Source: Microgenomates group bacterium (GTDB lineage Bacteria; Patescibacteriota; Microgenomatia; UBA1400; MFAQ01). Taken from it: a stretch of DNA of 64,000 nucleotides. A program made the position numbers and the translations under genes. Shown here one piece after another: positions 4,846 through 17,833 of the stretch. A model generated the notes under the pieces. It had not been told where the DNA came from. It saw nothing but the letters and a program-made list of their open reading frames with translations, and made no database searches. The DNA lies in NCBI GenBank assembly GCA_049303575.1, contig JBAQNH010000002.1, forward strand, positions 444,541 through 508,540. The letters are read 5' to 3'. Position 1 is the stretch's first letter. Every line of letters starts with the position of its first letter.

Positions 4846-5548
4846 TACATTTCGATATACCAACGCGAGTATTTACGACAGGAGGTCTATAAAACCAATT
4901 GAAAAATATATTAAGTCAATTTGGGATCCAATATTAATCAATACACTTAGAAAGAATATCTCACCGAATGATATTATATGCGATTTAGGTTCTGGAACAT
5001 TTGAATATACACAATATATGGGAATGGCAAAAGAAATATTTGCAGTAGAAATTAACAAGAAAATGATTGATGGAGGAACGAATAAAATTAAACATATTAG
5101 CAATAAAGTAAACATCCTTTGTGAAAACGCGCTTTCTAGTAGTATTGCAAATAAATCTTGTTCAATAGTTTGGATCATAGGATTGTTAGAATATGTTGAC
5201 TTGCATAAAATATTTGATGAAATAGGTCGTGTTAGTAAAAATAAGACGAAGTTATTTATCCAATTTCCTAATCTATTTCATCCATATAATTTTGGTATTA
5301 ATATAATTTATAAAATACTTGGTATACCAATAAAAAAATATCATACATTGTCAGAAGTGAAAACAATCGCACGTCAAAATGGATTTATTCTTAAAAAAAC
5401 AACGAGTAGAGGAATATTTCTACTAGTACCAGAATCAGTTCAAGACAAGCTAATTTGGCTTTGGAAAATACTTGAAAAGGTTGTAAAACCTATACAATCT
5501 ATATTTCCATTAGGAATCAACGTATTCTGTGAGTTTGAGAAAGGATGA
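4829..5548 (+). CDS. Class I SAM-dependent methyltransferase
   Basis: ICDLGSGTFEY is a motif I variant, followed by an acidic residue; a WIIGLLEYV motif II-like segment follows. Confidence 0.6.
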   Translation: MNYIDNTFRYTNASIYDRRSIKPIEKYIKSIWDPILINTLRKNISPNDIICDLGSGTFEYTQYMGMAKEIFAVEINKKMIDGGTNKIKHISNKVNILCENALSSSIANKSCSIVWIIGLLEYVDLHKIFDEIGRVSKNKTKLFIQFPNLFHPYNFGINIIYKILGIPIKKYHTLSEVKTIARQNGFILKKTTSRGIFLLVPESVQDKLIWLWKILEKVVKPIQSIFPLGINVFCEFEKG

Positions 5549-6623
5549 GACTCGACCATTGTTTGGAGATTTGCCTTATATCATGATTTGCACAAACGTA
5601 TTTATAAGCGTTTGATGATTTGGTTTTATATTCTCCTGAATTTCTAAGAAGACGATCAACCTGCTTAATAAATAATCCAAAATCATTATTTGAAAAATAT
5701 CCAAGGTTATATGTAGAAATGAAATTATCGGGGTTAACATTAAGTGATACAACAGGAGTTTTTCCAACACATGCCTGAAGATATACGTTTGGGAATCCTT
5801 CAAATTTAGATGTTCCAACTAATAGTTTAGCTTTATTAAAATACGTTTGTATTTTATCGAACGGAACACTTTCAACAAATTTAAGATTGTTAATATATTT
5901 AGATTCATTATAGATTGTGTTCCAAAGTATACGATTTGATGATTTTGGCATTATCATAACAAACTTATTATCAGGTAGTAATCTACATAATTGTAAAAAT
6001 AAATTTGGTTGTTTTACTTCTCTTGCTGATCCAACCCACAATATATATTCACCCTTTGCCTTGATTGAATTTTCAATATTAATACCATTCCTTATTACAA
6101 TAGAATTTTTATTGTGAAATTTTTTTAGGTCACTTTTTTGCTGTTTGTTTTGAACAATTACGATATCCGCATTTATTAATCCGTATCTATAGACCTGTCC
6201 AAAAAAATATCCCATTAACCTAATTTTTTCATTCGTACAGTCAACGCTACTGGCGGAACGGAATATAAAACGCTTTCCATATATTTTGCAGAATAATGCA
6301 ATTAGTCCTATTTCAAACCCTGCTGAAGATGAAATGAATATATCTGAATCTGCCTTTACAAGAGATTTCCACAATACAAAAGGAACGGCAAGAATATTAA
6401 AAATATTCTTTTTCAATGAAATAGATTTTATTATTTCGATATTCTTCTTCTTTTGATTTACAGTGCCAAAATCACCAACTATAAATTTAATCTTAAAGTT
6501 TTTGTTAGTACTTAATATTTCAGAAATTTGACCAAGTTGCGATTCCGTCCCACCAATTGAAACCGTCGAATCATTCGAAAAATATGAAAACGAAAATAAA
6601 TTTACGAAGCAAATACTTGTCAT
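5517..6623 (-). CDS. Glycosyltransferase family 4
   Basis: SKFEGFPNVYLQACVGKTPVVS is the GT4 E-x7-E region. Last gene of a 10-gene minus-strand operon. Confidence 0.75.
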   Translation of the reverse strand: MTSICFVNLFSFSYFSNDSTVSIGGTESQLGQISEILSTNKNFKIKFIVGDFGTVNQKKKNIEIIKSISLKKNIFNILAVPFVLWKSLVKADSDIFISSSAGFEIGLIALFCKIYGKRFIFRSASSVDCTNEKIRLMGYFFGQVYRYGLINADIVIVQNKQQKSDLKKFHNKNSIVIRNGINIENSIKAKGEYILWVGSAREVKQPNLFLQLCRLLPDNKFVMIMPKSSNRILWNTIYNESKYINNLKFVESVPFDKIQTYFNKAKLLVGTSKFEGFPNVYLQACVGKTPVVSLNVNPDNFISTYNLGYFSNNDFGLFIKQVDRLLRNSGEYKTKSSNAYKYVCANHDIRQISKQWSSLILSQTHRIR

Positions 6624-7378
6624 TTCTTAAGTATTGTAACTATATACGGAGACCACCATTTACAATCTCTAAATGAAATATTTAAGAGACGAGATAACCA
6701 ATCTATAATAATTTGAAATAAATATCCAATTCTTAATAACCATATATTTCCAGAAAACAGCCCAAAGTTAATTCCACCAACATAATCGTTAAATATAATT
6801 TTTAGTTTATATTCTTTTGAAATGTTTTCAAAATATTTAAGGTTCATTACTTCATCGTTGTGAATATTTAAAACTCTTCGATCAAGTATTGTTTGAATAT
6901 ATTTATTAATTCCGTTTAAATTGGGTACAATAATAATTATTAATCCTCTGGGCTTTGTTAAATTTACGTGAATTTTTATAATATCATCTAACATTTTTCC
7001 TCTAAAGTGCTCTATGAAACCTGCTGAAAAAACGACATCGTACTGTATATCATTTTTATACTTGAGAATATTTGATTTGATTAAAGTCGATTTAATATTT
7101 AGATAGTCCAGATTCCTTTTTGAGATTTCTATTGCATTATTGGTATAGTCAAGCCCGTATACTTGATATCCAAATACTGTATGAAAATAATGCATCCAAC
7201 TTCCTGGTGCACAACCAATTTCAAAAAATTCAATTTTTTTCGATTTTGATAATTTATCAATAAATATATTATTTAATCGTAAAAACGGTAAGCTATGTAA
7301 ATTTTCAGTAATTGGAAGCCTTCTTTCTCTTTTATATAACCGATTCCAATATGATTTTGAAGTCATTTCTTCCTTCAT
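6620..7378 (-). CDS. Class I SAM-dependent methyltransferase
   Basis: FFEIGCAPGSWMHYF matches motif I. The gene overlaps its neighbour in the minus-strand operon. Confidence 0.65.
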   Translation of the reverse strand: MKEEMTSKSYWNRLYKRERRLPITENLHSLPFLRLNNIFIDKLSKSKKIEFFEIGCAPGSWMHYFHTVFGYQVYGLDYTNNAIEISKRNLDYLNIKSTLIKSNILKYKNDIQYDVVFSAGFIEHFRGKMLDDIIKIHVNLTKPRGLIIIIVPNLNGINKYIQTILDRRVLNIHNDEVMNLKYFENISKEYKLKIIFNDYVGGINFGLFSGNIWLLRIGYLFQIIIDWLSRLLNISFRDCKWWSPYIVTILKK

Positions 7379-7397
7379 AAGGATAAATTTATTAGAA

Positions 7398-8246
7398 TCA
7401 TTTTTTAAAAAATAGTATCTGATGGCAACCTAAATTATCTGAACTAATAATTTTCTTAACAAAAAATCCTTTGTTGCTAAAATAGTTAATTAATTCGTCA
7501 ACAGAGGCGTATTCGTACGGATAACCGCCAAGCCAATCTTTGATATCTGTCGTAAAAAACATTCCTCTATTGTTGTAGTTTTTGATGTATAAAAATGGAT
7601 TCCTCAAGGTCAGAATGTATCCAAAAACAAACCATATATAGTAAAGATACTCAATAATTTTTTTACCAAACCAACCAGAAGAATTATATGTTTTTTTTAT
7701 CTTAAGCCATAAATCTGATGAACCTGAAAACAATGCACTCAATCCCCGGTTTTTGTTATATATAGCTAATATCAAATAACTATTTTTTTTACATATTTTA
7801 ATAATATTGTTAAAGGCTTGATACATATCTCCGGTGTGATGAAGAACACCCCATGAATAGACAATGTCGAATTTTCCCAACGAATTGACGAATTTTTGAT
7901 TCAATATAGAACCATGTTTTACAAGCCAATTAATGGGATTATCCTCCTGTTGTTTAAGACGATTTACACACTTGATAGAATATTTATCGATATCAACACT
8001 TAGCAGCTTTGCAACCCCAAAACGGTAAGCTGCAAATGAAAACAAACCGCTTCCACATCCAATGTCAATAAATGACTTGTTTTTAAGCTGTGACTTAGAT
8101 ATGAGATCCAACATTGAATTTTCAGCTTGTATGATTTTTTTTGGTGATACTTTATTCAGGTATTCTTGCCAGTTTTCGCCAAAACTAAAATGATCTTTAT
8201 CCTTGTATGAATTTTCATATAATAAATGGTGATCTCTTTTTTTCAT
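7398..8246 (-). CDS. Class I SAM-dependent methyltransferase
   Basis: FIDIGCGSGLFSFAA is motif I; VDID and VYSWGVLHH follow downstream. Confidence 0.75.
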   Translation of the reverse strand: MKKRDHHLLYENSYKDKDHFSFGENWQEYLNKVSPKKIIQAENSMLDLISKSQLKNKSFIDIGCGSGLFSFAAYRFGVAKLLSVDIDKYSIKCVNRLKQQEDNPINWLVKHGSILNQKFVNSLGKFDIVYSWGVLHHTGDMYQAFNNIIKICKKNSYLILAIYNKNRGLSALFSGSSDLWLKIKKTYNSSGWFGKKIIEYLYYIWFVFGYILTLRNPFLYIKNYNNRGMFFTTDIKDWLGGYPYEYASVDELINYFSNKGFFVKKIISSDNLGCHQILFFKK

Positions 8247-8262
8247 GGGAAGTAAAAACTAT

Positions 8263-9561
8263 TTAGTCATTTCTAATTGCTCTTTTAACAAAAGATGATG
8301 TGAAATTTGCCCCCCCCTTATTAAAAGATTTTAATAATTTATCCATATCAGTCCAAAAGATGTCAGAAATATTCTTCTCGCTAAACTGTTCCAATACATA
8401 ATTGCGGCCATTTATTGCGATGCGCTCTAATTCATTTTGATGTCTTTGATAATATTTAATCTTTTCTATCAACATTGAAAAACTGCCATCATATGAAATA
8501 TAATTCAGCCCATTAATCATACCTATTCGTTTATACATATCATCTTCAAGACCAATATAGGCACAACCACACGCCATCCCTTCAAAAACATTTACAGAAG
8601 GCAGACCGACAATTTCTTCTGGACTAATGAACATTTTATATGAATTGTATTTTTCCACAATATTAAATGAAAAATATTTATTTAAAAAATTTGGATAAAA
8701 TTTCTCCAAAATAAAATAAGGTAAATATTTCTTGCAGATTTTAGTTACAAAGGAATCGTTTTTTTTGGCGGTTTTTAAATTGTTGATATCGTCGTATAAA
8801 TATAGTAAAAACTCGATCTGTTTTTGATATTTAGATATTTTTCTATTATCATATAAAGTTTTTCTCATAGGATGCAGATTTTGCCCCTTACCGAAATAGT
8901 CGTTTAGGGGATGGGTAATAGCTTGTGAAATGGTTCCAACTGCCATGCACTTGTCACTTCTATCCGAAAATGTTTGAGTATCTTTAAATCTGGGAGATAA
9001 AGTAAATGGAAGTTGATATACGCTTTTTACGTCTGGAAAAAAATTCATAAAATACATGTTATGTGATATATCATTTTCAGCAAGAAGGAAGCTATTTTTT
9101 ACAGAAGAAAGATATTTAGATATATGATTTGTTCCAACGAAATAATGAGTTAGATGAGTCAAGACTACACCATCATATTTATGGAATTGCATATTGTTAT
9201 TATTTAGAACATATGATCCATCGATGGTTGAATGTGAATAATTTAAAATAATATCTTTTTTGGGGTTTAGATTATCGACATTAAAATACACTTTCACTTT
9301 TAATGGATTAATATTATTGATAATCATCCAAATTAGTAACTCAATGTAGGATATAACTTTTGATAACAACACAAATCTGATTCCTATCCCGTTTAATGAA
9401 GATTTTGAGCCATCAACAATAAATGCTACATCTCTATTTTTACTTAATATGTATTCAGTAATGAAAAAACTATATTTCTTATGACCCTTTCGTGAAATTA
9501 CTAAATCTAAGAGCGTCCTCCCGATTAAATGAACCTGAGGGTTAGATATTACTAATCTCAT
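8263..9561 (-). CDS. CgeB-like / GT1-type glycosyltransferase (C-terminal Glyco_trans_1_2-like domain)
   Basis: C-terminal VFEGMACGCAYIG...LIEKIKYYQRHQNELERIAINGRNYVLEQFS resembles the CgeB/DUF3880 family C-terminal domain. Confidence 0.55.
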   Translation of the reverse strand: MRLVISNPQVHLIGRTLLDLVISRKGHKKYSFFITEYILSKNRDVAFIVDGSKSSLNGIGIRFVLLSKVISYIELLIWMIINNINPLKVKVYFNVDNLNPKKDIILNYSHSTIDGSYVLNNNNMQFHKYDGVVLTHLTHYFVGTNHISKYLSSVKNSFLLAENDISHNMYFMNFFPDVKSVYQLPFTLSPRFKDTQTFSDRSDKCMAVGTISQAITHPLNDYFGKGQNLHPMRKTLYDNRKISKYQKQIEFLLYLYDDINNLKTAKKNDSFVTKICKKYLPYFILEKFYPNFLNKYFSFNIVEKYNSYKMFISPEEIVGLPSVNVFEGMACGCAYIGLEDDMYKRIGMINGLNYISYDGSFSMLIEKIKYYQRHQNELERIAINGRNYVLEQFSEKNISDIFWTDMDKLLKSFNKGGANFTSSFVKRAIRND

Positions 9562-10349
9562 TTTTTAATTAAAAGATAATTCTTTGTAAATTTAGTGTTA
9601 GAGTCAACTTTTATTATCCAATCATCACTAATTTTTTTTAAAAATTTGTCTACCACCCTTCTCAGTCCTGAATCGCAGCCGTAATCGTCAAAAAGGATAT
9701 AAGCTTTATCAGCAATAAGATCTCCGTCAATTAAAATATCGAAAATTTCTATTGCAGATTGGGAAACATCACAATCAATGTGTATAAAACAAAACCCCTT
9801 TACATTTATAGTCATTAGATATTTAAGGATCTCCTGTTTTTGTCTATATAAATATTTTTTTATGTGAATTTGTTTTATTGTTTCAGGATATAAGATATTG
9901 CTATTCAGTACATTTTTTTTACACAATCTTAACGACGTATTATTAAACTGTCCCTTAAAAAACAGTTTGTCTTCATAAGGCAATCCTATAAAACCATCAA
10001 TACCAATCAACTTCTTGTTAATAATCGCGAATCTTTCCATAAAATATGCAATCCAAAGCAATGAAAATCCTCGCCATGATCCAAATTCAATAAATTCACC
10101 CTTCAACCCAGAACACTTACTGATAATTTTTTTAAAGTTTATTAATCGACCAATTTGGTGTTCAAATTCTCTATTACCAGTGTTCTTTATTTTATCGTAA
10201 TATTTTTTATTTAAATCATTAATATTATAAATTAAACTCATCGGCTTTAAACTATCTAACAAATTATATTTTTTTATCCCATTAGCCATTAAATATAATT
10301 TGTTAGAAAGTTTTTCTCCTAAAATATTTTTAATAATCTTTTTTATCAT
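9558..10349 (-). CDS. TylF/MycF-family (macrocin-type) sugar O-methyltransferase
   Basis: GEFIEFGSWRGFSL matches the TylF E-x-G-v-w-R-G motif. HIDCDV...ILFDDYG matches the TylF Mg/SAM region. Confidence 0.6.
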   Translation of the reverse strand: MIKKIIKNILGEKLSNKLYLMANGIKKYNLLDSLKPMSLIYNINDLNKKYYDKIKNTGNREFEHQIGRLINFKKIISKCSGLKGEFIEFGSWRGFSLLWIAYFMERFAIINKKLIGIDGFIGLPYEDKLFFKGQFNNTSLRLCKKNVLNSNILYPETIKQIHIKKYLYRQKQEILKYLMTINVKGFCFIHIDCDVSQSAIEIFDILIDGDLIADKAYILFDDYGCDSGLRRVVDKFLKKISDDWIIKVDSNTKFTKNYLLIKK

Positions 10350-10891
10350 TTTTTTATTTTATCCCAAACACCTGATCTATTAATAAGGCTCAGACTAAAC
10401 AAGTCAAATGGTTCGAAGAATTTTTCCAATATATGAAGGCATGCTTCTGCCACAGCACCCTCACCACCCCTCGCTTTTGTTACGTAGTCTGCCAATTCTT
10501 TTGTTTTATAAAACGCATTTGCAGGAGCGATACTGTATCCTACTTTTTTAAACACCAACGGGTCGTATATTCCGTCGCCCATATATATTGTCTCAGCAAG
10601 GTTGTATCTTTGTTCAATCCATTCAACTCGGTTGAAAGTGCTCACCAAATCTAAAGGAAGCTTCATGTCATCAGCAATCCTTTTCTTTGTTATGGCAAAC
10701 CCATTTTTATCACCGGAAATTGCGTGAATCACTAGTTTATCCTTTAATAAAGATAAAGCATCGTTATCCTCTGGTCCGAATTTTTTCATCACCTTTCCTT
10801 CGGTAGTATAGAAAAACGATCCATCAGTAAAAACACCATCGACATCGAGAATAAGATATTTAGGTTTCGTCATTTTTGTAGTTCTCTCCAT
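10346..10891 (-). CDS. HAD-IIIA phosphatase, KdsC/YrbI family (ulosonate/sugar-phosphate phosphatase)
   Basis: LILDVDGVFTDG is HAD motif I in the KdsC layout. The C-terminal MGDGIYDPLVFKKVGYSIAPANA is KdsC-like. Confidence 0.75.
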   Translation of the reverse strand: MERTTKMTKPKYLILDVDGVFTDGSFFYTTEGKVMKKFGPEDNDALSLLKDKLVIHAISGDKNGFAITKKRIADDMKLPLDLVSTFNRVEWIEQRYNLAETIYMGDGIYDPLVFKKVGYSIAPANAFYKTKELADYVTKARGGEGAVAEACLHILEKFFEPFDLFSLSLINRSGVWDKIKK

Positions 10892-12438
10892 AGATTTAAT
10901 TTACCAAAATAAAATAAGAACAAGTCAAATGGGTGATGATGAAGCGGAGACATATTAAGCCAAATTAGCGCAGAGAGTATTCTTACCTTTTTCTCGTTAA
11001 ATTGATTTTTATCAATAAAGTCAAACAAAACTTTTTGACATTGAACTAAATTTTCTTTTCTCAATATGTCGCAAGAAATCTTTCCTCCCTTTATATCAAT
11101 GGTAAAAAGATTTTCATTTACGATTCCGTGGTTCACTACCAAGTTGTGGTTTAGTTTTGCCAAATCATAATACTTATCACCAGATATGAGCAATCCTCCA
11201 AAATCCTGACGCCAGTCGAGTAGGGAATAGCCAGATTTTGTCTTAATTATATTGTCGAGTATAAAGTCACCATGGAACATACTCTGCTCCGCTTCACACA
11301 ACTCATTAAAATCTAACTTCTTAATTATTTCTTTTATTGAAGGAACAATCTCGCCATTAATAACGTCTTTTTGATCAACAATAGATCTAGAACTAAGAAA
11401 CTTATCTATTCTTTGAATTGTTTTTTTATAATAAAAATCTCTACAAATTGATTTGAACTTTTCATTACCAACCTCTTTAGTTTTTTTCCACAATTTTTTA
11501 TTTGCCCAATTTAAGAACTCTCGAAAGTCATTTGGATTTGCGACAGTTGAATATAGATCGCCTTGTGAATATTTATATTTAAAAAAGTTACTTTTCACAC
11601 CTTCTATTTTTGGAACCAATCCCTTAAGTATCTCTGCTCTTTTTACTCTCTTGGTTATGAGATCTTTATCCGAAAAAAACTTTACAACAAATTTATCAAA
11701 TATAAATATCGATTCTCCAAGCTTATCTAAAATATAAAAAGTATCATTTATTTCCTGTCTTGCTTTTTGTAAACACTCAACGTTTCCAGTGTCGTACCAC
11801 TTTTTAAAATCAACCGCTTTAAAACCAATCTCATTCTTAAACATGACATTTAAAGCCTTCACGTCATTTAATGATGAATCATTAGGATTTTTCTCGTATA
11901 GATTTCCAAGTGAAGACCAAAAGGCTTTAAAGTCGTTTATTCCCACAAGACCAATGTGTAGAAAATCAGGATCAAAATTTCCTTTGTCATATATTTCCTT
12001 AACTTTTTCTTCGATGACATCGAATGAGGAATATGCAGATGACCCTTCTCCTTTAAATCCTCCAATCCAGTTCTGGTTTGGAACCGGAATTTTTTGATCC
12101 ATCACGAGGGTGTCAGCTGCATGATAAATAAACGGACACATAAGAGCTTTCTTCGCCTTCAGCATTGAGTACCCGAGACTAGTTCCTGGACCCTCGTATT
12201 TATCCACTGTCACAAACTCGAAAGTTCTGTCCGGATATACCAGCTCCAAAAAGTCTCTTACCTGATTACCAAAATACCCAAGAGTAATAACAAACTCAGT
12301 TTTTTTTGGATAGGCCTCAATAATGTATGAAATCGCTGGTTTTTTCCCCACCTTAACTAAAGATTTATTCGTATATTGAGTAATTTCACCCAATCTAGAT
12401 CCAGTCCCCGATGTAGTAACTAGTACTTTAAATTTCAT
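10870..12438 (-). CDS. Bifunctional nucleotidyltransferase (N-term) / APH-ChoK-fold kinase (C-term) fusion; substrate unknown
   Basis: N-terminal TTSGTGSRLGE...SLVKVGKKPAISYII is an NTP-transferase G-x-G-T-R-L fold of LicC/RmlA type. C-terminal HGDFILDNII is the Brenner catalytic loop of APH/choline-kinase-like enzymes. Confidence 0.6.
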   Translation of the reverse strand: MKFKVLVTTSGTGSRLGEITQYTNKSLVKVGKKPAISYIIEAYPKKTEFVITLGYFGNQVRDFLELVYPDRTFEFVTVDKYEGPGTSLGYSMLKAKKALMCPFIYHAADTLVMDQKIPVPNQNWIGGFKGEGSSAYSSFDVIEEKVKEIYDKGNFDPDFLHIGLVGINDFKAFWSSLGNLYEKNPNDSSLNDVKALNVMFKNEIGFKAVDFKKWYDTGNVECLQKARQEINDTFYILDKLGESIFIFDKFVVKFFSDKDLITKRVKRAEILKGLVPKIEGVKSNFFKYKYSQGDLYSTVANPNDFREFLNWANKKLWKKTKEVGNEKFKSICRDFYYKKTIQRIDKFLSSRSIVDQKDVINGEIVPSIKEIIKKLDFNELCEAEQSMFHGDFILDNIIKTKSGYSLLDWRQDFGGLLISGDKYYDLAKLNHNLVVNHGIVNENLFTIDIKGGKISCDILRKENLVQCQKVLFDFIDKNQFNEKKVRILSALIWLNMSPLHHHPFDLFLFYFGKLNLWRELQK

Positions 12439-13117
12439 TTTTCAATTTATTATCAATTGTTTTCCTGAACTCTTTGATTTTTACATTAACTTTCACGTCT
12501 GGCTTAAAGATTGAAGATGTACCACAGACAAGAATGTCTGCTCCTGCTTTAATCATTTCTGCTGCAGTATCCGGATTTACTCCACCATCAATTTCAATAA
12601 GAATCTTTTTTCCAGAAGTAATAATCTTTTCTTTCAAGTCCGAAATCTTCTTAAATATTCCAGGAATTACCTTATGTCCAACAATTCCAGGGTTTATAGC
12701 CATTAGCTCGACCATATCCACATCGTCTAGGATGTAGTCGAGAGCATTTAGTGGAGTCGCATAGTTCAAAACTACTCCTGCTTTAACGCCACACTCTCTA
12801 ATCTTTTTTAATGTTAGATGAAGATGTTTGCATGATTCGAAATGAACCGCAATGATATCTGCTCCAGCATCAGCAAACTCTTTAATGTATCTTCCGGGCT
12901 CTTCAGTCATCATATGAACATCGATAGGGAGATGAGAAACCTTCTTTATTGAAGATAATAGTTCAGGGTATAAGCCATATCTGGGAACAAAATTACCATC
13001 CATCATATCGAAATGGATATAATCAATTTTGCCTTTTTCTAAGTTTTTTACTTCTTTCCCAAACTCCAGGTGGTTTGCACAAATTAGAGAAGCTGATAGA
13101 TAGTATCTTTTTTTCAT
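12428..13117 (-). CDS. rpe: Ribulose-phosphate 3-epimerase
   Basis: IHFDMMDGNFVP, DVHMM, GVKAGVVLN, MAINPG, IDGGVN and AGADILVCGTSSIF are the canonical RPE motifs in the canonical order. Confidence 0.9.
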   Translation of the reverse strand: MKKRYYLSASLICANHLEFGKEVKNLEKGKIDYIHFDMMDGNFVPRYGLYPELLSSIKKVSHLPIDVHMMTEEPGRYIKEFADAGADIIAVHFESCKHLHLTLKKIRECGVKAGVVLNYATPLNALDYILDDVDMVELMAINPGIVGHKVIPGIFKKISDLKEKIITSGKKILIEIDGGVNPDTAAEMIKAGADILVCGTSSIFKPDVKVNVKIKEFRKTIDNKLKNEI

Positions 13118-13118
13118 A

Positions 13119-13673
13119 TTATTCCAAATTTGAGTGTCTTTTCCACATTGTTTCGTGAGTTTCTTTCATTTTTTCCATAAGTTCCAAAACCACGGCATCA
13201 TAAAATATTCCCAGACATTGTTCGTTCAAAGTAGTCATTGGTTGAATTGAAGAGAATCCATCAACCGACTTAGTTTTTGATGGGGCTTTTATCTGAACGA
13301 TAATATCAGCAAGTTTTCCAATTCTGGACTTTGGATCTCCTGTAACAAGTAACACTTTCGCTTTGTTTTTTTTGGCAATCAAAACCAAGTCATATATTGT
13401 TTGGGTTTCCCCAGATCCTGAACTGACAATAAATAAGTCTCCCTTACCTATTGAAGGAACCGTTGAGTCTCCCAAGGTATAAGCATTGAGTCCCAAATGA
13501 CCCAATCTCATTCCAAATCCTCTCGTGGCCATTCCTACTCGGCCAGCACCACACAAAACGATTTTATCTGCTTTCAAAATTGATGCCACTAATTGCTTGA
13601 TTTCTTTATTGTTCAAAGAATCTAACACAGTATCAATTTCTCTCAATATTCTTTTAATATAACTACTTATCAT
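13119..13673 (-). CDS. hxlB: SIS-domain sugar-phosphate isomerase, 6-phospho-3-hexuloisomerase (HxlB/PHI)-like
   Basis: CGAGRVGMATRGFGMRLGHLGLNAY, FIVSSGSGETQ and the C-terminal ...ETMWKRHSNLE align closely with remembered B. subtilis HxlB (AGAGRSGLMAKSFAMRLMHMG ... ETMFTHHANLE). Confidence 0.8.
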   Translation of the reverse strand: MISSYIKRILREIDTVLDSLNNKEIKQLVASILKADKIVLCGAGRVGMATRGFGMRLGHLGLNAYTLGDSTVPSIGKGDLFIVSSGSGETQTIYDLVLIAKKNKAKVLLVTGDPKSRIGKLADIIVQIKAPSKTKSVDGFSSIQPMTTLNEQCLGIFYDAVVLELMEKMKETHETMWKRHSNLE

Positions 13674-14997
13674 GTTTAACCAAATAATCTATTGACATAT
13701 TTATATATGATTTAATCAAATACTTTTGAATTATTATTACGATCATAGCATTTAATATGTACAAAATAACTAATGCTTGAACTGAAATAGCGTGAAAGAA
13801 TATTAATAATCCATATGCCAATATATGAAAAATATTTATCAAAGTTTGTAATAATACAAAATGTCGATATATTTCTTTTGATATAGATACAAGAATGTTT
13901 CCATTTATTGATAGATATACATAAAGTGCAGATAAAATTGAAAAACTCAGTACCAGATTTAGATTAATACTATACTTCGCACCAAACAATGAAATTGCAA
14001 CTAATATCACACCAATCATTAATATGATTAAAGGTAGTGAACAAATTAAAAATAATCTGTCGATTTTCTTTACCACTACCCTGTAGTTAATCCCAGAAAT
14101 TGAGGGAAGAAAAACATTAATAAACATTTGAGTTAACTGTGCCATCAGGTTAACTGACACCATATAATATGCACTGTAAATCCCCAAATCAGTGAAGGTT
14201 AAATATTTTACGATAATTAATTTGTCTATCGAATTAAAACCGACAGCTAATACAGTACCAATAAAGATTATCCTACCTAGTGATAATTGTTTTAATAGGG
14301 ATGAAAAATCAAAATGAGTTATATATGGAATAATTTTTTTAAAATAAATTGCCAACAACACCAGAAATCCGAAAATTAGGGATATTACAAAAAAATAATA
14401 GTCATGTCTATTCCCTAAAACAAAAGTAAAATAAAAAATAATTCCCAATATTAAAATCTCAGTAATTTTCCCAAAAAATTGATATCTAAATAAATGTAAA
14501 CCACGAATTATTGAATCAAGAAAGGCTTTATAACCTACCAATAATGAATAAATAAATGCAATTACAAAAAATGATTTTCCCAAAGAAAATCTCAAATTAA
14601 GATAATTTAGAGAAAAAATAAAAATGATTGTCAGCAATATAGAGGAAAGAAAAACAAAAAAAATCGAACTTGAAATTATTTTTTTTCGGTCAGTAATATC
14701 ATTGTTCTTAGATATTGATATCAAACTCGACACATCCAACCCGAATAACATTGGGACAATTAAGATTTGTGCGATTGTGGTAATGAGACTATATTTCCCA
14801 AATTCTTCAGGACCCATTAACCTCCCCGCATAAATATTTATTATCATCATAATTGCTGAGGCAGTAATTCCCCCAGCAACTGACCATGAAAGATGTCTCA
14901 GAAATTTTCTCATTTGATCGCTCATTTCATGCTGAAACAGCTTCAAATGTAAAATTTCGGCAACAGCGACAATACCCTTCTTAATTGTAGAAATCAT
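13663..14997 (-). CDS. Wzx-like polysaccharide flippase (MOP superfamily)
   Basis: A ~12-TM hydrophobic profile over 444 aa with no soluble domain. Its position as first gene of the glycan operon is typical for Wzx. Confidence 0.6.
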   Translation of the reverse strand: MISTIKKGIVAVAEILHLKLFQHEMSDQMRKFLRHLSWSVAGGITASAIMMIINIYAGRLMGPEEFGKYSLITTIAQILIVPMLFGLDVSSLISISKNNDITDRKKIISSSIFFVFLSSILLTIIFIFSLNYLNLRFSLGKSFFVIAFIYSLLVGYKAFLDSIIRGLHLFRYQFFGKITEILILGIIFYFTFVLGNRHDYYFFVISLIFGFLVLLAIYFKKIIPYITHFDFSSLLKQLSLGRIIFIGTVLAVGFNSIDKLIIVKYLTFTDLGIYSAYYMVSVNLMAQLTQMFINVFLPSISGINYRVVVKKIDRLFLICSLPLIILMIGVILVAISLFGAKYSINLNLVLSFSILSALYVYLSINGNILVSISKEIYRHFVLLQTLINIFHILAYGLLIFFHAISVQALVILYILNAMIVIIIQKYLIKSYINMSIDYLVKHDK

Positions 14998-15081
14998 GGA
15001 CTTATTGTATTTTAGTCTATATTTTCCTCATCTACACAGCTATGAGGAATATATAAATTTGAAAAGCTATAATAAAACCAG

Positions 15082-16632
15082 ATGTTTAGGAAATACGCTT
15101 TATATTTTTTTCCAATTTGCCTTTCACTATTAATCTCGATCAACTTTTTTTGGTCAGAATCATTTCTTTCTGGGTTTGATACCCCCTTCTATCTCTCGAC
15201 AATCAGAGATTTTGCTCGAGATGTGCCGAGTATTACCAACTATTTTATTCTTGATCGCTACTTGGTAATTGGGTTTCCAGCGTTACTTTCCAGATTGTTT
15301 AATCTTGATCCTGTGGCGTCATACCGAATCGCAATTACGGTAATTTCTGCAATTATTTCCATTCTTATTTCGAAACTGATGTTCAAGCTAACAAAATCGC
15401 GTCTGGCAGGAATTGCATTGGCATCAGCGGTGATTATTTCTCCATACCTTTTAACGTATTCATACATGCTTTTTGCCAATTACACGAGCTTTGTTATTTT
15501 ATTTGCCTTCTTTGCCATTGAGCTTGGTAAAGAGTTTCGACTTAAAAGTGTTGTTCTCGGGGTGGTACTAGGCTTAATATTTTATATCCACAATTTTTCT
15601 TCAGTGGCTTACAGTCTGGTCGTTGGTCTATATTTCATTTTTAAGTTAATCCTAGAGGACAATAGACTTTCTACTATTAAACGCGCGACCGTTATTTTAC
15701 TCATATCCTGTGTAATTGGTTTTTTCCAGATAATTAAGTATTTTCCAGTGACCCTACCACCATTTTTGACGGTTGCGTCATCGTCTTCGTTCGTCGGTTC
15801 TATTATTAATAAAATCAAAATCATTGCGCCTAGCCAACCAGCTGTATTAGGTGACGAGGTACAAAGAATCAAAGCCACATTTTTAGATGAAACAGGCAAG
15901 TATTGGTTAGTGTATTTTGTTTGTTTCTCATTGTTCGCATTTATCACCAAAAGAAAAGAAATAGTTCTTAATCTAAAAAAGTTTGCATTTCCCCTGGCCC
16001 TATTTATTGTTGGTCTAGTGTTTTCATTTCAACCCCTTGTTGGTCTAAATTTTCTACCGGAAAGATTTATTGGTCTTGTGATAATTTCCACCTTTTTCTT
16101 TTACGCCATTTTCCTGTCACTTTTTTCAAAAAGTAAAGTATTTAAAATTTTGGCCGTATTACCACTCTTGTTTACTTACCTTTCCTCGGACACAAAAATT
16201 CTTAATCGAGGCCCCGTATTCGTAAACGATATGGAAGTCTCTTTTTATCAAAAAATTGCACAAATCGTACCTAAAGAAAATTCATATATTTTACTTCCTA
16301 GTGGCAACTATTACTGGGCAAAATATTATCTTGATGGCTACACTTTTATGCCAGGTGATTACTTTATCGCTTGTGGTATTGTAAAAATACCAGATTATCA
16401 AAATTCTGCTGATGTCGCTTATGCAAAGTTACTATCAGAAAAAAGTGTCGAAGAGGCTCAACTCTTACTAAAAGCAACAAAAAATTCAATATACATGAAT
16501 ATCACGATCAAAAAACTATACATCATTACCAATCATTCAATGAACTGTAGTGAGGGATATGTATTGGACAAGCTAAGTGGTGTAAAACTAATTTTGAACA
16601 AGGATAATTTTTACCTATATGAAGTACTTTAA
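15082..16632 (+). CDS. Polytopic membrane protein with C-terminal soluble domain (candidate GT-C transferase or polymerase)
   Basis: About 11 TM segments, then a ~120 aa hydrophilic C-terminus. Divergent from the minus-strand glycan operon. Confidence 0.4.
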   Translation: MFRKYALYFFPICLSLLISINFFWSESFLSGFDTPFYLSTIRDFARDVPSITNYFILDRYLVIGFPALLSRLFNLDPVASYRIAITVISAIISILISKLMFKLTKSRLAGIALASAVIISPYLLTYSYMLFANYTSFVILFAFFAIELGKEFRLKSVVLGVVLGLIFYIHNFSSVAYSLVVGLYFIFKLILEDNRLSTIKRATVILLISCVIGFFQIIKYFPVTLPPFLTVASSSSFVGSIINKIKIIAPSQPAVLGDEVQRIKATFLDETGKYWLVYFVCFSLFAFITKRKEIVLNLKKFAFPLALFIVGLVFSFQPLVGLNFLPERFIGLVIISTFFFYAIFLSLFSKSKVFKILAVLPLLFTYLSSDTKILNRGPVFVNDMEVSFYQKIAQIVPKENSYILLPSGNYYWAKYYLDGYTFMPGDYFIACGIVKIPDYQNSADVAYAKLLSEKSVEEAQLLLKATKNSIYMNITIKKLYIITNHSMNCSEGYVLDKLSGVKLILNKDNFYLYEVL

Positions 16633-16807: not shown

Positions 16808-17833
16808 ATGACCAAACCCAAAGTCGCTCTAATTGTTGGTGTTACTTCACAAGACGGTTCATACCTAGCCGATCTATTGCTTGAAAAAGGCTACAAAGTC
16901 GTTGGTACGATTCGACGTTCAACATCGACGGTTCAGCCAAACATTGAGCACCTCAAGGGTAAGATTATTCTCGAAGCCGCCGACCTGACTGATCAAGAAT
17001 CTCTCAACAGAGTCATGATTAAATATCAACCTGATGAGGTTTACAATATTGCTGCCCAAAGTGTTCCCGCCGACAGCTGGTCTCACCCCTTCTACACCGG
17101 AGAGGTGACCGCTCTTGGCCCCGTTCGTGTTTTTGAGGCCGTACGTCATTTTTGTCCAAACGCCCGCGTCTATCAAGCCACCTCCCGTGAGATTCTTGGC
17201 GGAGTTGAAGGGGTCGAGCATGCCAACGAAAAAACTCCCATTTTCGCCAACAACCCCTATGGCATTGCCAAGGCCTACGCCCACATGATGATTGATTGTT
17301 ATCGAAAGTCCTACGACATGTTTGTTTGCGGAGGCATTCTTTTTAATCACGAATCACCTCGTCGTTCACTTCACTTTGTCACCCGTAAGATTAGTATGGG
17401 TGTTGCCTGTATTAAGCTTGGTATCAAAAACCCACCTATCAATGAAATAGGTGAACCGTTGATTGACGCAGAAGGCAAACTTCATCTTGGGGATCTCTCG
17501 GCCGTCAGAGATTGGGGTTATGCCAAAGAATACGTTGAGGCTATGTGGCTTATGCTTCAACAACCTACTCCCAAGGATTATGTCATTGGTACTAACACGA
17601 GCTACTCCATTAAAGACGCTTGCAAGGCTGCCTTTGATCATGTTGGTCTTAACTGGGAAGATCACGTCATCTCGGACTCTAAACTTCTAAGACCAACAGA
17701 AATCAAAGCCATGATGGGAGATTCTTCTCTCGCCAAGAAAGAGCTTGGTTGGGAACCACGCACCTTCATGAAAGAGCTTATGGAAATAATGGTTGATAGC
17801 GACATTGCTCTCCTAAAAAAAGAAAACGGATGA
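16808..17833 (+). CDS. gmd: GDP-mannose 4,6-dehydratase
   Basis: ALIVGVTSQDGSYLADLLLEKGYKV Rossmann motif, NPYGIAKAYAHMM Y-x3-K and FNHESPRR are Gmd signatures. GC content rises abruptly at this gene. Confidence 0.9.
   Translation: MTKPKVALIVGVTSQDGSYLADLLLEKGYKVVGTIRRSTSTVQPNIEHLKGKIILEAADLTDQESLNRVMIKYQPDEVYNIAAQSVPADSWSHPFYTGEVTALGPVRVFEAVRHFCPNARVYQATSREILGGVEGVEHANEKTPIFANNPYGIAKAYAHMMIDCYRKSYDMFVCGGILFNHESPRRSLHFVTRKISMGVACIKLGIKNPPINEIGEPLIDAEGKLHLGDLSAVRDWGYAKEYVEAMWLMLQQPTPKDYVIGTNTSYSIKDACKAAFDHVGLNWEDHVISDSKLLRPTEIKAMMGDSSLAKKELGWEPRTFMKELMEIMVDSDIALLKKENG

What the first reader, a model, noticed from the sequence alone, without database searches (positions are those of the whole stretch)
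10870..12438. Single-polypeptide nucleotidyltransferase–APH-fold kinase fusion
Residues ~1-250 carry the sugar-1-P/choline-P nucleotidyltransferase glycine loop (TTSGTGSRLGE, then KPAISYIIE). Residues ~380-470 carry the Brenner motif HGDFILDNII and a downstream D-x-x-D region typical of APH, choline-kinase or anomeric sugar kinases (NahK/AmgK-like). The LicA–LicC (phosphocholine) and AmgK–MurU (MurNAc recycling) pathways use these two activities as separate proteins. A fusion would channel a phosphorylated intermediate straight to NDP activation. Its neighbours (phosphatase, isomerase, epimerase) point to a sugar substrate rather than choline.
Basis: partly seen in the sequence, partly recalled or inferred. 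Interest (0 to 1): 0.7.

Follow-up and report, generated by a model that had tools for sequence, protein, structure and literature searches.

The report
Fused sugar kinase and nucleotidyltransferase
This is a real two-domain enzyme, a sugar-activating nucleotidyltransferase fused to an antibiotic-kinase-like kinase, in a four-gene cassette that most likely turns a pentose phosphate into a nucleotide-activated furanose sugar for a surface glycan; a related phage enzyme was characterised in 2026, so the fusion is not new, but I found no description of its wide use by cells.

Summary
ORF 10870-12438 (-) encodes a 522-aa protein. Its N-terminal half has a LicC/RmlA/MurU-type nucleotidyltransferase fold. 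Its C-terminal half has an APH/choline-kinase fold with all catalytic motifs intact.

It is not a one-off. More than 2,000 proteins share the architecture, in CPR bacteria, DPANN archaea, Bacteroidota, Campylobacter concisus, Chlorobium and viruses, and the kinase domain is nearly always found fused.

The gene overlaps its neighbours in a conserved cassette: PHI-type SIS isomerase, ribulose-phosphate 3-epimerase, the fusion, and a KdsC-like HAD phosphatase. The cassette lies inside a large glycan locus.

The family is homologous over both domains to phage bifunctional enzymes (RB69 gp52:53; hhalign E 2.4e-16). A 2026 paper equates these with HY126 AfhE, a D-arabinose-5-P kinase/UDP-D-arabinose pyrophosphorylase that works with a phosphatase.

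The best reading is ketose-P → aldose-5-P → sugar-1,5-bisphosphate → sugar-1-P → NDP-furanose, probably D-arabinofuranose. Because the separate phosphatase acts between the two fused activities, direct channelling is unlikely.

The isomerase and phosphatase belong to different subfamilies from the phage ones, so the identity of the sugar is unproven.

Verdict: a new cellular variant of a recently described kind, of moderate interest.

The parts
10870..12438 (-). Bifunctional nucleotidyltransferase-kinase gene (522 aa); AfhE-like
   Evidence: ORF confirmed. An identical protein exists in a Microgenomates MAG and there are 2,378 homologues. The full-length model has pLDDT 89.9. hhalign against the phage bifunctional family gives 98.7% probability and E 2.4e-16 over 462 columns.
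11749..12438 (-). N-terminal nucleotidyltransferase domain (about aa 1-230)
   Evidence: Arch_glmU NCBIfam model, aa 5-219, E 5.8e-11. LicC 1jyk by sequence: E 9e-6 for the single protein, 2.9e-8 for the profile. Foldseek: LicC TM 0.81, IPCT 0.80, RmlA 0.76, MurU 0.74-0.77. Invariant G13, L16, G17, K33, D109, W214, D216, G218 in the alignment.
12388..12417 (-). Glycine-rich NTP-binding loop TTSGTGSRLG (aa 8-17)
   Evidence: Translation. The Arg of GxGxRL is present in 196 of 222 full-length members.
10873..11736 (-). C-terminal APH/choline-kinase-fold kinase domain (about aa 235-522)
   Evidence: The model of aa 232-522 has pLDDT 89.5. All 50 top PDB matches are APH/ChoK-fold kinases. RB69 ORF052c is a better match, E 6.9e-13 and TM 0.63. 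18 of 26 homologues hit PF01636.
11251..11274 (-). Catalytic loop (Brenner motif) HGDFILDN, aa 389-396
   Evidence: Translation. H389, G390, D391 and N396 are invariant. The motif is present in 221 of 222 members.
11164..11217 (-). Metal-binding Asp and family-specific motif DWRQDFGG...GDKYYD (aa 408-425), continuing into AKLNH
   Evidence: Translation. The motif D-x-R-x-x-F-G...Y-D-x-A-K is shared with the phage family (IDPRGYFG...YDEAK) in the hhalign alignments.
13119..13673 (-). SIS-domain sugar-phosphate isomerase, 6-phospho-3-hexuloisomerase (PHI) type, 184 aa
   Evidence: TIGR03127 scores 195.9 bits against a cut-off of 160; KdsD reaches only E 2e-7. Found together with the epimerase next to the fusion in 42 of 80 species loci.
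12428..13117 (-). Ribulose-phosphate 3-epimerase family protein, 229 aa; overlaps the fusion gene by 11 nt
   Evidence: PF00834 E 1.2e-64. TIGR01163 scores 221.4 bits (cut-off 212.6). The AlsE model scores 182 bits, below its cut-off of 271. Coordinates.
10346..10891 (-). KdsC/YrbI-like HAD phosphatase, 181 aa (175 aa from the alternative ATG at 10873, which forms an ATGA overlap with the fusion's stop codon)
   Evidence: TIGR01670 scores 80.2 bits, below its cut-off of 106.95; the KDN-9-P phosphatase model scores 71.6 bits. The overlap was read directly from the sequence. Present in 69 of 80 loci. Fused to the enzyme in P0119.
9558..10349 (-). TylF-family O-methyltransferase, 263 aa; overlaps the phosphatase gene by 4 nt
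   Evidence: PF05711 E 1.7e-10. A TylF domain is fused N-terminally to the enzyme in P0068. Present in 11 of 80 loci.
13663..14997 (-). Wzx-type flippase at the head of the same-strand gene run
   Evidence: PF01943 E 8.6e-18. The same position is occupied by a flippase in several related loci.

Best explanation
The gene encodes an AfhE-like bifunctional enzyme. It belongs to a translationally coupled module (SIS isomerase, ribulose-phosphate 3-epimerase, nucleotidyltransferase-kinase, HAD phosphatase) that converts a pentose-phosphate-pathway intermediate into a nucleotide-activated sugar for a surface glycan.

Proposed order of steps (all inferred):
1. The epimerase interconverts xylulose-5-P and ribulose-5-P.
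2. The PHI-type SIS enzyme isomerises the ketose phosphate to an aldose 5-phosphate, which is locked in the furanose form.
3. The C-terminal APH-fold domain uses ATP to phosphorylate the anomeric hydroxyl, giving a sugar 1,5-bisphosphate.
4. The KdsC-like phosphatase removes the terminal phosphate.
5. The N-terminal domain condenses the sugar 1-phosphate with an NTP to give an NDP-furanose.
6. Glycosyltransferases in the locus use this donor, and methyltransferases then modify the sugar.

The most likely sugar is D-arabinofuranose (my estimate about 0.4-0.45). Another pentofuranose or a hexose is possible.

What is shown: the two folds, the intact catalytic motifs, the conserved cassette, and homology to the phage family. 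What is inferred: every catalytic step, the order of steps, the nucleotide and the sugar.
For: Folds and motifs.

Operon: the genes overlap by 11, 22 (or 4) and 4 nt.

Conservation of the cassette:
- Of 80 species-representative loci, 69 carry the KdsC-like phosphatase.
- 42 carry SIS plus epimerase, and 4 more have the epimerase at a cut contig end.
- The same gene order is seen in Moranbacteria and other contigs.

Gene fusions that tie the partners together: enzyme-HAD (P0119), enzyme-KbaZ-like (P0187), cupin-enzyme (P0233), enzyme-cupin (P0120), TylF-enzyme (P0068).

The kinase domain is almost never free-standing. Of the best 150 cluster representatives for the C-terminal profile, 107 are 500-560 aa, and the listed coordinates place the domain at about residues 230-520.

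Homology to the phage enzymes:
- hhalign against RB69-type, DLP1, JS98, Thanatos-2 and S-SRM01 proteins: 98.7%, E 2.4e-16, both domains in the same order.
- Against Enterococcus phage 9183 ORF047: 99.1%, E 6.9e-19.
- The best viral structural matches are two-domain proteins, E 4e-24 to 3e-19. The RB69 kinase half matches at E 7e-13, far better than any PDB APH.

The phage loci have the same order, isomerase, fusion, HAD.

PMC13326640, citing He et al. [quoted passage not shown]

Chemical reasoning (inference): the PHI reaction (3-hexulose-6-P to fructose-6-P) is the 1-hydroxymethyl homologue of ribulose-5-P to arabinose-5-P, with the same D-arabino stereochemistry. The phosphorylated tail of Kdo-8-P, the substrate of KdsC, derives from arabinose-5-P.
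Against: - No activity was measured for any cellular member.
- Only the fusion enzyme is shared with the phage system. The phage isomerases are KpsF/GutQ type and the phage phosphatases are EcbF/BcbF type. Here they are PHI type and KdsC type. The substrate may therefore differ.
- The SIS protein passes NCBI's PHI cut-off. This would suggest hexulose/fructose-6-P chemistry rather than pentose chemistry.
- A dedicated epimerase copy also occurs in Bacteroidota and Proteobacteria, which presumably have a housekeeping rpe (an assumption I did not check). This hints at a non-housekeeping specificity.
- In 27 of 80 loci the feeder enzymes are instead a GatZ/KbaZ-like protein, and in 23 of those also a PMI-type cupin. 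The characterised relatives of the GatZ/KbaZ family act on hexose phosphates (own knowledge).
- Identity to the phage proteins is only about 23%. With RB69 single sequences the domain-wise hhalign probabilities are modest: 56% for the kinase half (E 1e-4) and 15% for the nucleotidyltransferase half.
- The C-terminal profile finds nothing significant in the PDB by sequence alone.
Confidence: 0.7

Rival explanations
1. The enzyme logic is the same (anomeric kinase, phosphatase, nucleotidyltransferase), but the sugar is a hexose or ketohexose derived from fructose-6-P rather than a pentose. One route: PHI makes 3-hexulose-6-P, the epimerase inverts C4, and the result is tagatose-6-P or a derived aldose-6-P. 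A GatZ/KbaZ-like 4-epimerase could make the same product directly in the alternative cassette.
For: - The SIS protein scores 195.9 bits on the PHI model, above the cut-off of 160.
- The epimerase also scores 182 bits on the allulose-6-P 3-epimerase model.
- SIS plus epimerase and KbaZ-like (mostly with a cupin) are mutually exclusive next to closely related fusion enzymes: 46 loci (42 with both genes, 4 with the epimerase at a cut contig end) against 27, and never both.
- The KbaZ-like profile hits GatZ structures 2fiq and 3txv at about 1e-6.
- The cupin matches the phosphomannose-isomerase C-terminal domain.
Against: - The only characterised relatives (AfhE type) act on a pentose 5-phosphate.
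- 3-Hexulose-6-P cannot form a ring, so it has no anomeric hydroxyl for the kinase.
- The SIS-plus-epimerase cassette has no aldose-ketose isomerase for a 2-ketohexose. The cupin is nearly always absent there; the one exception is L004.
- The KbaZ and AlsE hits are far below their curated cut-offs.
Confidence: 0.2
2. A salvage-type order of steps. The phosphatase first frees the sugar, the kinase then phosphorylates the free sugar at C1 (as NahK, AmgK or MtnK do), and the nucleotidyltransferase activates it. No bisphosphate intermediate forms.
For: Table 1 of PMC13326640 annotates the phage HAD as 'dephosphorylates Araf5p to Ara' and the C-terminal domain as 'phosphorylates Ara to Araf1p'. APH-fold anomeric kinases acting on free sugars exist (own knowledge: NahK, AmgK, MtnK). 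Maltokinase, which appears among the fold hits, is another (its C1 specificity is own knowledge).
Against: The text of the same paper, citing the HY126 biochemistry, gives Araf5P to Araf-1,5-P2 (AfhE) and then Araf-1-P (AfhF). Heptose and octose pathways use the bisphosphate order (own knowledge). Arg410 and Lys428 are invariant and shared with the phage family. They could bind a second phosphate, but this is inference only.
Confidence: 0.1
3. A LicCA-like enzyme that phosphorylates a small alcohol or amine (choline, ethanolamine, a polyol) and makes a CDP-linked head group for decorating a glycan or lipid.
For: LicC is the best PDB match of the N-terminal half by sequence and by fold. Ethanolamine and choline kinases are among the best fold matches of the C-terminal half. 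Some sources name homologues 'choline kinase'.
Against: - The conserved, overlapping partners are sugar-phosphate enzymes and a sugar-phosphate-type phosphatase.
- No LicB- or LicD-type protein was found among the 20 neighbouring proteins scanned.
- Homology to the phage arabinose enzymes is much stronger than to LicC or LicA.
Confidence: 0.04
4. The C-terminal domain is a catalytically dead, structural or regulatory kinase-like extension of an ordinary sugar-1-P nucleotidyltransferase.
For: The window protein itself has no significant Pfam APH hit. The C-terminal profile finds nothing significant in the PDB by sequence.
Against: HGDxxxxN is kept in 221 of 222 members, and the metal-binding Asp and the beta-3 Lys (K253) are invariant. 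The fold is unambiguous. The characterised phage relative is reported to have kinase activity.
Confidence: 0.02

Closest known systems
Phage AfhE/AfhF pathway to UDP-D-arabinofuranose (HY126 AfhE and AfhF; RB69 gp52:53, gp51, gp55; DLP3 gp82, gp81, gp83), as described in PMC13326640, which cites He et al. 2026 and Mahler et al. 2025
   Same: - One polypeptide with an N-terminal nucleotidyltransferase and a C-terminal APH-like kinase.
- Full-length homology: hhalign 98.7%, E 2.4e-16; structural matches.
- Shared family-specific kinase motif D-x-R-x-x-F-G...Y-D-x-A-K.
- Same gene order: SIS isomerase, fusion, HAD phosphatase.
   Different: - Identity is about 23%.
- The isomerase is PHI type, not KpsF/GutQ type, and the phosphatase is KdsC type, not EcbF/BcbF type.
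- An extra ribulose-phosphate 3-epimerase is present.
- The context is a cellular glycan locus with flippases, glycosyltransferases and methyltransferases, not a 5-hydroxycytosine DNA-modification cluster.
- The sugar and nucleotide are untested.
NDP-heptose and NDP-octose pathways: GmhA/HddA/GmhB/HddC, the bifunctional HldE, and LmbN/LmbP/LmbK/LmbO of lincomycin (own knowledge)
   Same: The logic is the same: SIS isomerase makes an aldose omega-phosphate, an anomeric kinase makes a bisphosphate, a HAD phosphatase removes the omega-phosphate, and a nucleotidyltransferase activates the sugar. HldE likewise fuses a kinase with a nucleotidyltransferase whose reactions are separated by a phosphatase step. 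HddC appears among the fold matches.
   Different: The kinases there are GHMP (HddA, LmbP) or ribokinase/PfkB fold (HldE), not APH fold. The HldE transferase domain is of the cytidylyltransferase family. The HddC and GmhA models score far below their cut-offs here.
LicA/LicC phosphocholine pathway and the Treponema denticola LicCA fusion (fusion: own knowledge; Kent et al. 2004 is cited in PMC7368946)
   Same: A LicC-like nucleotidyltransferase fold (TM 0.81) precedes a choline-kinase-fold domain in the same N-to-C order.
   Different: No intervening phosphatase step is needed for choline. There are no LicB or LicD partners here. The partners here are sugar-phosphate enzymes. Sequence similarity to LicC is limited to about 100 N-terminal residues.
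AmgK/MurU (MurNAc recycling) and NahK-type anomeric kinases
   Same: An APH-fold anomeric sugar kinase is followed by a minimal MurU-type uridylyltransferase. MurU is a good fold match (TM 0.74-0.77).
   Different: Those are separate proteins that act on free sugars in salvage. The MurU equivalog model scores 22.7 bits against a cut-off of 250. The context here is de novo synthesis from sugar phosphates.
FKP (Bacteroides L-fucokinase/GDP-fucose pyrophosphorylase; PMC11982464, listed)
   Same: A bifunctional kinase plus NDP-sugar pyrophosphorylase in one chain.
   Different: The FKP kinase is GHMP fold and acts on a free sugar, so its two reactions are consecutive (own knowledge). It is not homologous in the kinase half.

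Membership tests
AfhE-like bifunctional sugar-5-P kinase / NDP-sugar pyrophosphorylase (phage family) | N-terminal nucleotidyltransferase and C-terminal APH-like kinase in one polypeptide | tested here: met
   Two-domain model, pLDDT 89.9. Fold matches for each half.
AfhE-like bifunctional sugar-5-P kinase / NDP-sugar pyrophosphorylase (phage family) | Sequence homology across both domains to the phage proteins (RB69 gp52:53 type) | tested here: met
   hhalign A1 against A4: 98.7%, E 2.4e-16, 462 columns. Against phage 9183 ORF047: 99.1%, E 6.9e-19. BFVD matches. I did not retrieve HY126 AfhE itself. Its equivalence to RB69 gp52:53 rests on PMC13326640.
AfhE-like bifunctional sugar-5-P kinase / NDP-sugar pyrophosphorylase (phage family) | Adjacent HAD phosphatase (AfhF-like, EcbF/BcbF type) | tested here: inconclusive
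   A HAD phosphatase is adjacent and overlapping, but it is KdsC/YrbI type. The phage ones are TIGR01689 type. tblastn finds no cross-hits. The partner is analogous, not orthologous.
AfhE-like bifunctional sugar-5-P kinase / NDP-sugar pyrophosphorylase (phage family) | Adjacent KpsF/GutQ-type arabinose-5-phosphate isomerase | tested here: not met
   The window SIS protein is PHI type (TIGR03127, 195.9 bits; KdsD E 2e-7). It is 19-25% identical to the phage isomerases, BLASTP E about 0.02.
AfhE-like bifunctional sugar-5-P kinase / NDP-sugar pyrophosphorylase (phage family) | [quoted passage not shown] | not testable with these tools
   Needs enzyme assays. Reported only for HY126 AfhE, second-hand through PMC13326640.
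AfhE-like bifunctional sugar-5-P kinase / NDP-sugar pyrophosphorylase (phage family) | Association with 5-hydroxycytosine DNA modification genes (ThyA-like hydroxylase, DNA arabinosyltransferases) | tested here: not met
   The neighbours are flippases, glycosyltransferases, methyltransferases and GDP-mannose dehydratase.
Sugar-/alcohol-phosphate nucleotidyltransferases (PF00483/PF12804; LicC, RmlA, MurU) | Profile match above the curated threshold | tested here: inconclusive
   The window protein scores 18.4 bits, below the cut-off of 21.2. 19 of 26 homologues match at E no greater than 0.01. The precomputed PF00483 hit appears on most close homologues.
Sugar-/alcohol-phosphate nucleotidyltransferases (PF00483/PF12804; LicC, RmlA, MurU) | Rossmann-like fold with the GxGxR(L/M) loop, a conserved Lys and two acidic metal ligands | tested here: met
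   Fold TM 0.74-0.81. G11/G13/R15/L16, K25, D109 and the W214-x-D216-x-G218 motif are present. The Arg is lost in about 12% of family members, but not here.
APH / choline-kinase (protein-kinase-like) phosphotransferases (PF01636) | Profile match above the curated threshold | tested here: inconclusive
   The window protein has no Pfam hit at E no greater than 0.01. 18 of 26 homologues do. The C. concisus and Chlorobium members exceed the cut-off, at 27.7 and 32.9 bits against 23.2.
APH / choline-kinase (protein-kinase-like) phosphotransferases (PF01636) | Bilobal kinase fold with the HxDxxxxN catalytic loop and a downstream metal-binding Asp | tested here: met
   All top-50 PDB fold matches are of this family. 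HGDFILDN and DWR are present and invariant.
LicA/LicC (LicCA) phosphocholine activation | Genomic association with choline uptake or transfer genes (LicB, LicD) | tested here: not met
   None among the 20 neighbouring proteins scanned with Pfam.
AmgK/MurU | Match to the MurU equivalog model | tested here: not met
   NF045761 scores 22.7 bits against a cut-off of 250 and covers only aa 4-64.

The most novel reading that the evidence does not exclude
The cassette is a widespread and so far undescribed cellular route to a nucleotide-activated D-arabinofuranose (or another pentofuranose), made directly from pentose-phosphate intermediates. CPR bacteria, DPANN archaea and scattered Bacteroidota, Campylobacterota and Chlorobiota use it for methylated surface glycans. 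Two non-homologous feeder modules (PHI-type SIS plus epimerase, or KbaZ-like plus cupin) converge on the same sugar phosphate. The phage DNA-arabinosylation pathway would then be a captured offshoot. Cells would gain a soluble NDP-D-Araf donor, where to my knowledge (own recollection) only the lipid-linked donor decaprenyl-phospho-arabinose is known.
Probability: 0.3. Interest if true: 0.75.

Novelty: new variant of a known kind. Interest (0 to 1): 0.55.

Why it matters
If the cellular enzymes work like AfhE, many uncultured lineages and some culturable bacteria (Campylobacter concisus, Chlorobium ferrooxidans DSM 13031) make a soluble nucleotide-activated pentofuranose that is not part of the textbook set of sugar donors.

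That would explain how furanose residues enter their glycans. It would give a functional name to more than 2,000 proteins now labelled 'hypothetical' or 'nucleoside-diphosphate-sugar pyrophosphorylase'. It would also point to a cellular origin for a phage anti-restriction DNA modification pathway.

The mutually exclusive feeder modules offer a clean case of non-orthologous replacement that can be tested in vitro.

Tried and rejected
- Single-sequence profile scans of the window protein were nearly uninformative for the kinase half. A sequence profile of the C-terminal half against the PDB gave only non-significant hits, ACAD11 and maltokinase at E about 0.3. The fold had to be established by structure prediction.
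- Foldseek with the full-length model returned only nucleotidyltransferase hits in its top 50. The C-terminal domain therefore had to be modelled separately.
- Four literature searches found nothing relevant: isomerase/kinase/capsule terms, 'anomeric kinase' fusions, GatZ/cupin clusters, and Patescibacteria glycosylation. The decisive lead came from a tblastn against phage genomes.
- The primary AfhE paper (He et al. 2026) and the T. denticola LicCA papers are not held. Those facts are therefore second-hand or from memory.
- No plasmid homologues were found.
- I considered a choline/LicCA reading, an AmgK/MurU salvage reading and a dead-kinase reading. I rejected them for the reasons given under the rival explanations.
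- I tried to identify the sugar from the alternative feeder enzymes, using PDB and NCBIfam searches of the KbaZ-like protein, the cupin and the roughly 378-aa methyltransferase. These gave only family-level assignments.
- No KpsF-type isomerase or EcbF-type phosphatase was found in any cellular locus.


Full report
**1. The observation**

The ORF listing finds an ATG-to-stop ORF at exactly 10870..12438 on the minus strand, encoding 522 aa.
- TTSGTGSRLG, aa 8-17.
- HGDFILDN, aa 389-396.
- DWRQDFGGLLISGDKYYD, aa 408-425.

Curated profiles barely see the window protein on its own. PF00483 scores 18.4 bits, below its 21.2 cut-off. The archaeal GlmU-type NCBIfam model covers aa 5-219 at E 5.8e-11. 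The only kinase signal is APH(3') at E 0.0094.

**2. Domain identity**

The protein is identical to a hypothetical protein of a Microgenomates-group MAG. It has 2,378 homologues at E no greater than 1e-3, and the 120 listed are nearly all 520-535 aa and full length.

Family-level profile evidence:
- In an alignment of 26 homologues, 19 hit PF00483 and 18 hit PF01636 (APH), best E 3e-6.
- The more distant Campylobacter concisus and Chlorobium ferrooxidans members exceed the Pfam APH cut-off.

Structural evidence:
- An AlphaFold model built on that alignment is confident, with pLDDT 89.9 and pTM 0.86.
- The N-terminal half superposes on LicC (TM 0.81, 2.6 A), CTP:inositol-1-P cytidylyltransferase, short RmlA and MurU.
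- Modelled alone (pLDDT 89.5), the C-terminal half has 50 top PDB matches that are all APH/choline-kinase-fold enzymes: ethanolamine kinase, APH(2''), glucosamine kinase, choline kinase, FN3K and maltokinase, at E 1e-6 to 4e-4.

Catalytic residues are conserved.
- In the transferase half these are the G-loop, K25, D109 and W214-x-D216-x-G218.
- In the kinase half these are K253, H389-G-D391...N396 and D408.
- HGDxxxxN occurs in 221 of 222 full-length members, and the G-loop Arg in 196 of 222.

**3. The fusion is the rule in this family**

A profile of the C-terminal domain was searched against 1.8 billion cluster representatives. It finds 2,507 proteins at E no greater than 1e-3, of which 564 are at E no greater than 1e-30. 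Of the best 150, 107 are 500-560 aa, and the listed coordinates place the kinase domain at about residues 230-520. The rest are mostly short proteins, probably fragments, or longer fusions.

A motif-guided scan of one genome per species gave 199 relatives. Most are in CPR/Patescibacteria. Others are in DPANN archaea, Bacteroidota, Verrucomicrobiota and Chlamydiota. At 36-40% identity there are members in Campylobacter concisus, Arcobacter, Wolinella, Geobacter, Chlorobium ferrooxidans DSM 13031 and Synergistaceae.

**4. Context**

In the window the gene sits in a same-strand run:
- Wzx-type flippase (13663-14997).
- SIS isomerase (13119-13673), which passes NCBI's 6-phospho-3-hexuloisomerase model at 195.9 bits against a cut-off of 160.
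- Ribulose-phosphate 3-epimerase (12428-13117), TIGR01163 at 221 bits against 212.6.
- The fusion.
- A KdsC/YrbI-like HAD phosphatase (10346-10891).
- A TylF-family O-methyltransferase.
- A GT1-like protein, two class I methyltransferases and a further GT1-family glycosyltransferase.

Successive genes overlap. The overlap is 11 nt between the epimerase and the fusion. An ATGA overlap is possible between the fusion and the phosphatase. The phosphatase and the TylF gene overlap by 4 nt. The surrounding 20 kb holds more glycan genes. The segment from 4 to 16 kb has 28-34% GC, against 38-45% beyond about 16 kb.

The cassette is conserved. Among 80 species-representative loci:
- 69 carry the KdsC-like phosphatase.
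- 42 carry SIS plus epimerase, and 4 more have the epimerase at a cut contig end.
- 27 carry a distant GatZ/KbaZ-family protein instead, 23 of them with a 115-aa PMI-type cupin.
- No locus among the 80 has both kinds of feeder.

Both kinds of feeder occur next to fusion enzymes that are 47-57% identical to the window protein. The two pairs are therefore interchangeable and probably supply the same substrate.

Natural gene fusions tie the partners to the enzyme: enzyme-HAD (P0119), enzyme-KbaZ-like (P0187), cupin-enzyme (P0233), enzyme-cupin (P0120) and TylF-enzyme (P0068).

**5. The key comparison**

tblastn against phage genomes found full-length but distant homologues. One is Enterococcus phage 9183 ORF047, which lies beside a small HAD gene and nucleotide-metabolism genes.

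A 2026 paper (PMC13326640) describes phages whose DNA carries arabinosylated 5-hydroxycytosine. The relevant genes are:
- RB69 gp55 and DLP3 gp83, arabinose-5-P isomerases.
- RB69 gp52:53 and DLP3 gp82, proteins with an N-terminal nucleotidyltransferase and a C-terminal APH-like kinase.
- RB69 gp51 and DLP3 gp81, small HAD phosphatases.

Citing He et al. [quoted passage not shown] It also states that AfhF dephosphorylates Araf-1,5-bisphosphate to Araf-1-P. I could not read the primary paper.

I fetched the phage loci and compared profiles:
- The window family against five phage proteins gives hhalign probability 98.7%, E 2.4e-16, over 462 columns covering both domains in the same order.
- Against phage 9183 ORF047 it gives 99.1%, E 6.9e-19.
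- The alignments share a kinase motif that ordinary APHs lack, D-x-R-x-x-F-G...Y-D-x-A-K.
- In the viral structure library the best five matches are two-domain proteins, E 4e-24 to 3e-19. The RB69 kinase half matches at E 7e-13 and TM 0.63, much better than any PDB APH.

The window protein is therefore a cellular relative of the AfhE-type enzymes.

**6. Mechanism**

By homology and context the most likely pathway is:

Xu5P ⇌ Ru5P (epimerase) → aldose-5-P (SIS) → aldofuranose-1,5-bisphosphate (kinase domain) → aldofuranose-1-P (HAD) → NDP-furanose (transferase domain).

Glycosyltransferases would then use the donor and methyltransferases would modify the sugar. This is the logic of the NDP-heptose and lincomycin octose pathways (own knowledge), but with an APH-fold kinase. 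As in HldE, the two fused activities are not consecutive. It is fused in some relatives.

The sugar is not settled.

For D-arabinose:
- The characterised relative acts on arabinose-5-P.
- The PHI reaction is the 1-hydroxymethyl homologue of the Ru5P to arabinose-5-P isomerisation, with the same stereochemistry.
- The natural substrate of KdsC carries an arabinose-5-P-derived phosphorylated tail. The last two points are inference.

Against D-arabinose:
- The isomerase and phosphatase belong to different subfamilies from the phage ones, and there are no cross-hits.
- The SIS protein passes the PHI cut-off.
- A dedicated epimerase is also carried by lineages that presumably have a housekeeping copy (an assumption I did not check).
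- The alternative feeder belongs to a family whose characterised members act on hexose phosphates (own knowledge).

I put the general mechanism at about 0.7 and D-arabinofuranose specifically at about 0.4-0.45.

**7. Novelty and verdict**

Fusion of a nucleotidyltransferase to an APH-fold kinase is not new. Precedents are AfhE-type phage enzymes and LicCA (the latter from my own knowledge).

What the papers I could search do not describe is the large cellular clade, its PHI-type/epimerase/KdsC-type partners, the mutually exclusive alternative feeder module, and its placement in glycan loci of CPR, DPANN and some culturable bacteria.

I rate it a new variant of a known kind, with interest 0.55. 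The most novel reading not excluded is a general cellular route to a soluble NDP-D-arabinofuranose donor. I give it a probability of about 0.3, and it would deserve about 0.75 if true.

Noticed in passing
L065-L084 (e.g. L077:3969-8710, L080:3121-8703); also L027, L042, L044, L048, L061: In 27 of 80 species loci the SIS-plus-epimerase pair is replaced by a distant GatZ/KbaZ-family protein (330-390 aa), in 23 of them together with a 115-aa PMI-type cupin. No locus among the 80 has both kinds of feeder. This looks like non-orthologous replacement of the feeder steps.
   Followed up: partly
L001:10155-11282, L003:11698-12837, L077:7568-8710 and 47 other loci; absent from the window: A methyltransferase of about 378 aa (PF13489 plus the C-methyltransferase C-terminal domain PF08484; weak hit to mycarose 3-C-methyltransferase 4rv9) follows the fusion-HAD pair in 50 of 80 loci. 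tblastn finds no counterpart in the window, which has a TylF-type methyltransferase instead.
   Followed up: partly
P0049, P0054, P0062, P0063, P0066, P0069, P0078, P0094 (alignment A1 columns for aa 13-17): About 12% of full-length family members have lost the otherwise universal Arg of the GxGxRL nucleotide-binding loop (replaced by P, M, T, N, G or A) while keeping all kinase motifs. The window protein keeps it.
   Followed up: partly
L085 (Enterococcus phage 9183, MT939241.1 28004-32956): A 544-aa homologue of the fusion (ORF047) sits after genes annotated thymidylate kinase, thymidylate synthase, dUTPase and a 114-aa EcbF/BcbF-type HAD. This suggests an uncharacterised sugar-based DNA hypermodification in this Enterococcus phage group. 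No SIS isomerase is nearby.
   Followed up: no
L086 (RB69 NC_004928.1 27708-29780): RefSeq calls the HAD phosphatase gp51 a 'phosphoheptose isomerase'. It also splits the bifunctional enzyme into ORF052c and ORF053c, whereas the near-identical Shigella phage phi25-307 has one 561-aa gene, labelled 'GlmU'.
   Followed up: yes
L091 (Synechococcus phage S-SRM01, MW015081.1 195088-197500): A KpsF-type SIS, fusion enzyme and small HAD trio lies inside a cluster with genes annotated for GDP-fucose synthesis, a fucosyltransferase and a GT2 enzyme. In this cyanophage the pathway appears to serve glycan synthesis rather than DNA modification.
   Followed up: no
L092 (Marine virus AG-345-E15, MH319741.1 10025-23551): An unannotated 'viral' single-cell contig encodes a fusion enzyme 46% identical to the window protein. 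A KbaZ-like gene follows directly and a cupin lies 4 kb downstream. No HAD phosphatase was detected.
   Followed up: partly
window 4000-16000 versus the rest: The part of the glycan locus that holds the cassette has 28-34% GC, against 38-45% beyond about 16 kb. This fits a variable or horizontally exchanged glycan segment.
   Followed up: no
window 1-25000: The window is dominated by glycan genes: two Wzx-like flippases (13663-14997 and 19548-20801), GDP-mannose 4,6-dehydratase (16808-17833), a second NAD-dependent epimerase/dehydratase-family (SDR) protein (18600-19538), an asparagine-synthase homologue (89-1969), a DUF2334/deacetylase, at least seven methyltransferases, and a 516-aa ORF with no Pfam hit (15082-16632, hydrophobic by eye).
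   Followed up: partly
P0192 (724 aa): One family member carries an N-terminal GIY-YIG/NUMOD3 homing-endonuclease module in front of the nucleotidyltransferase-kinase. It is probably a phage gene or a merged gene call.
   Followed up: no
L088:1240-1743 and L090:1301-1801 (phages Thanatos-2 and JS98): In these phages the gene upstream of the bifunctional enzyme is a 166-167-aa protein with no NCBIfam hit, in place of the arabinose-5-P isomerase. The phage pathway may also have alternative feeders or sugars.
   Followed up: no
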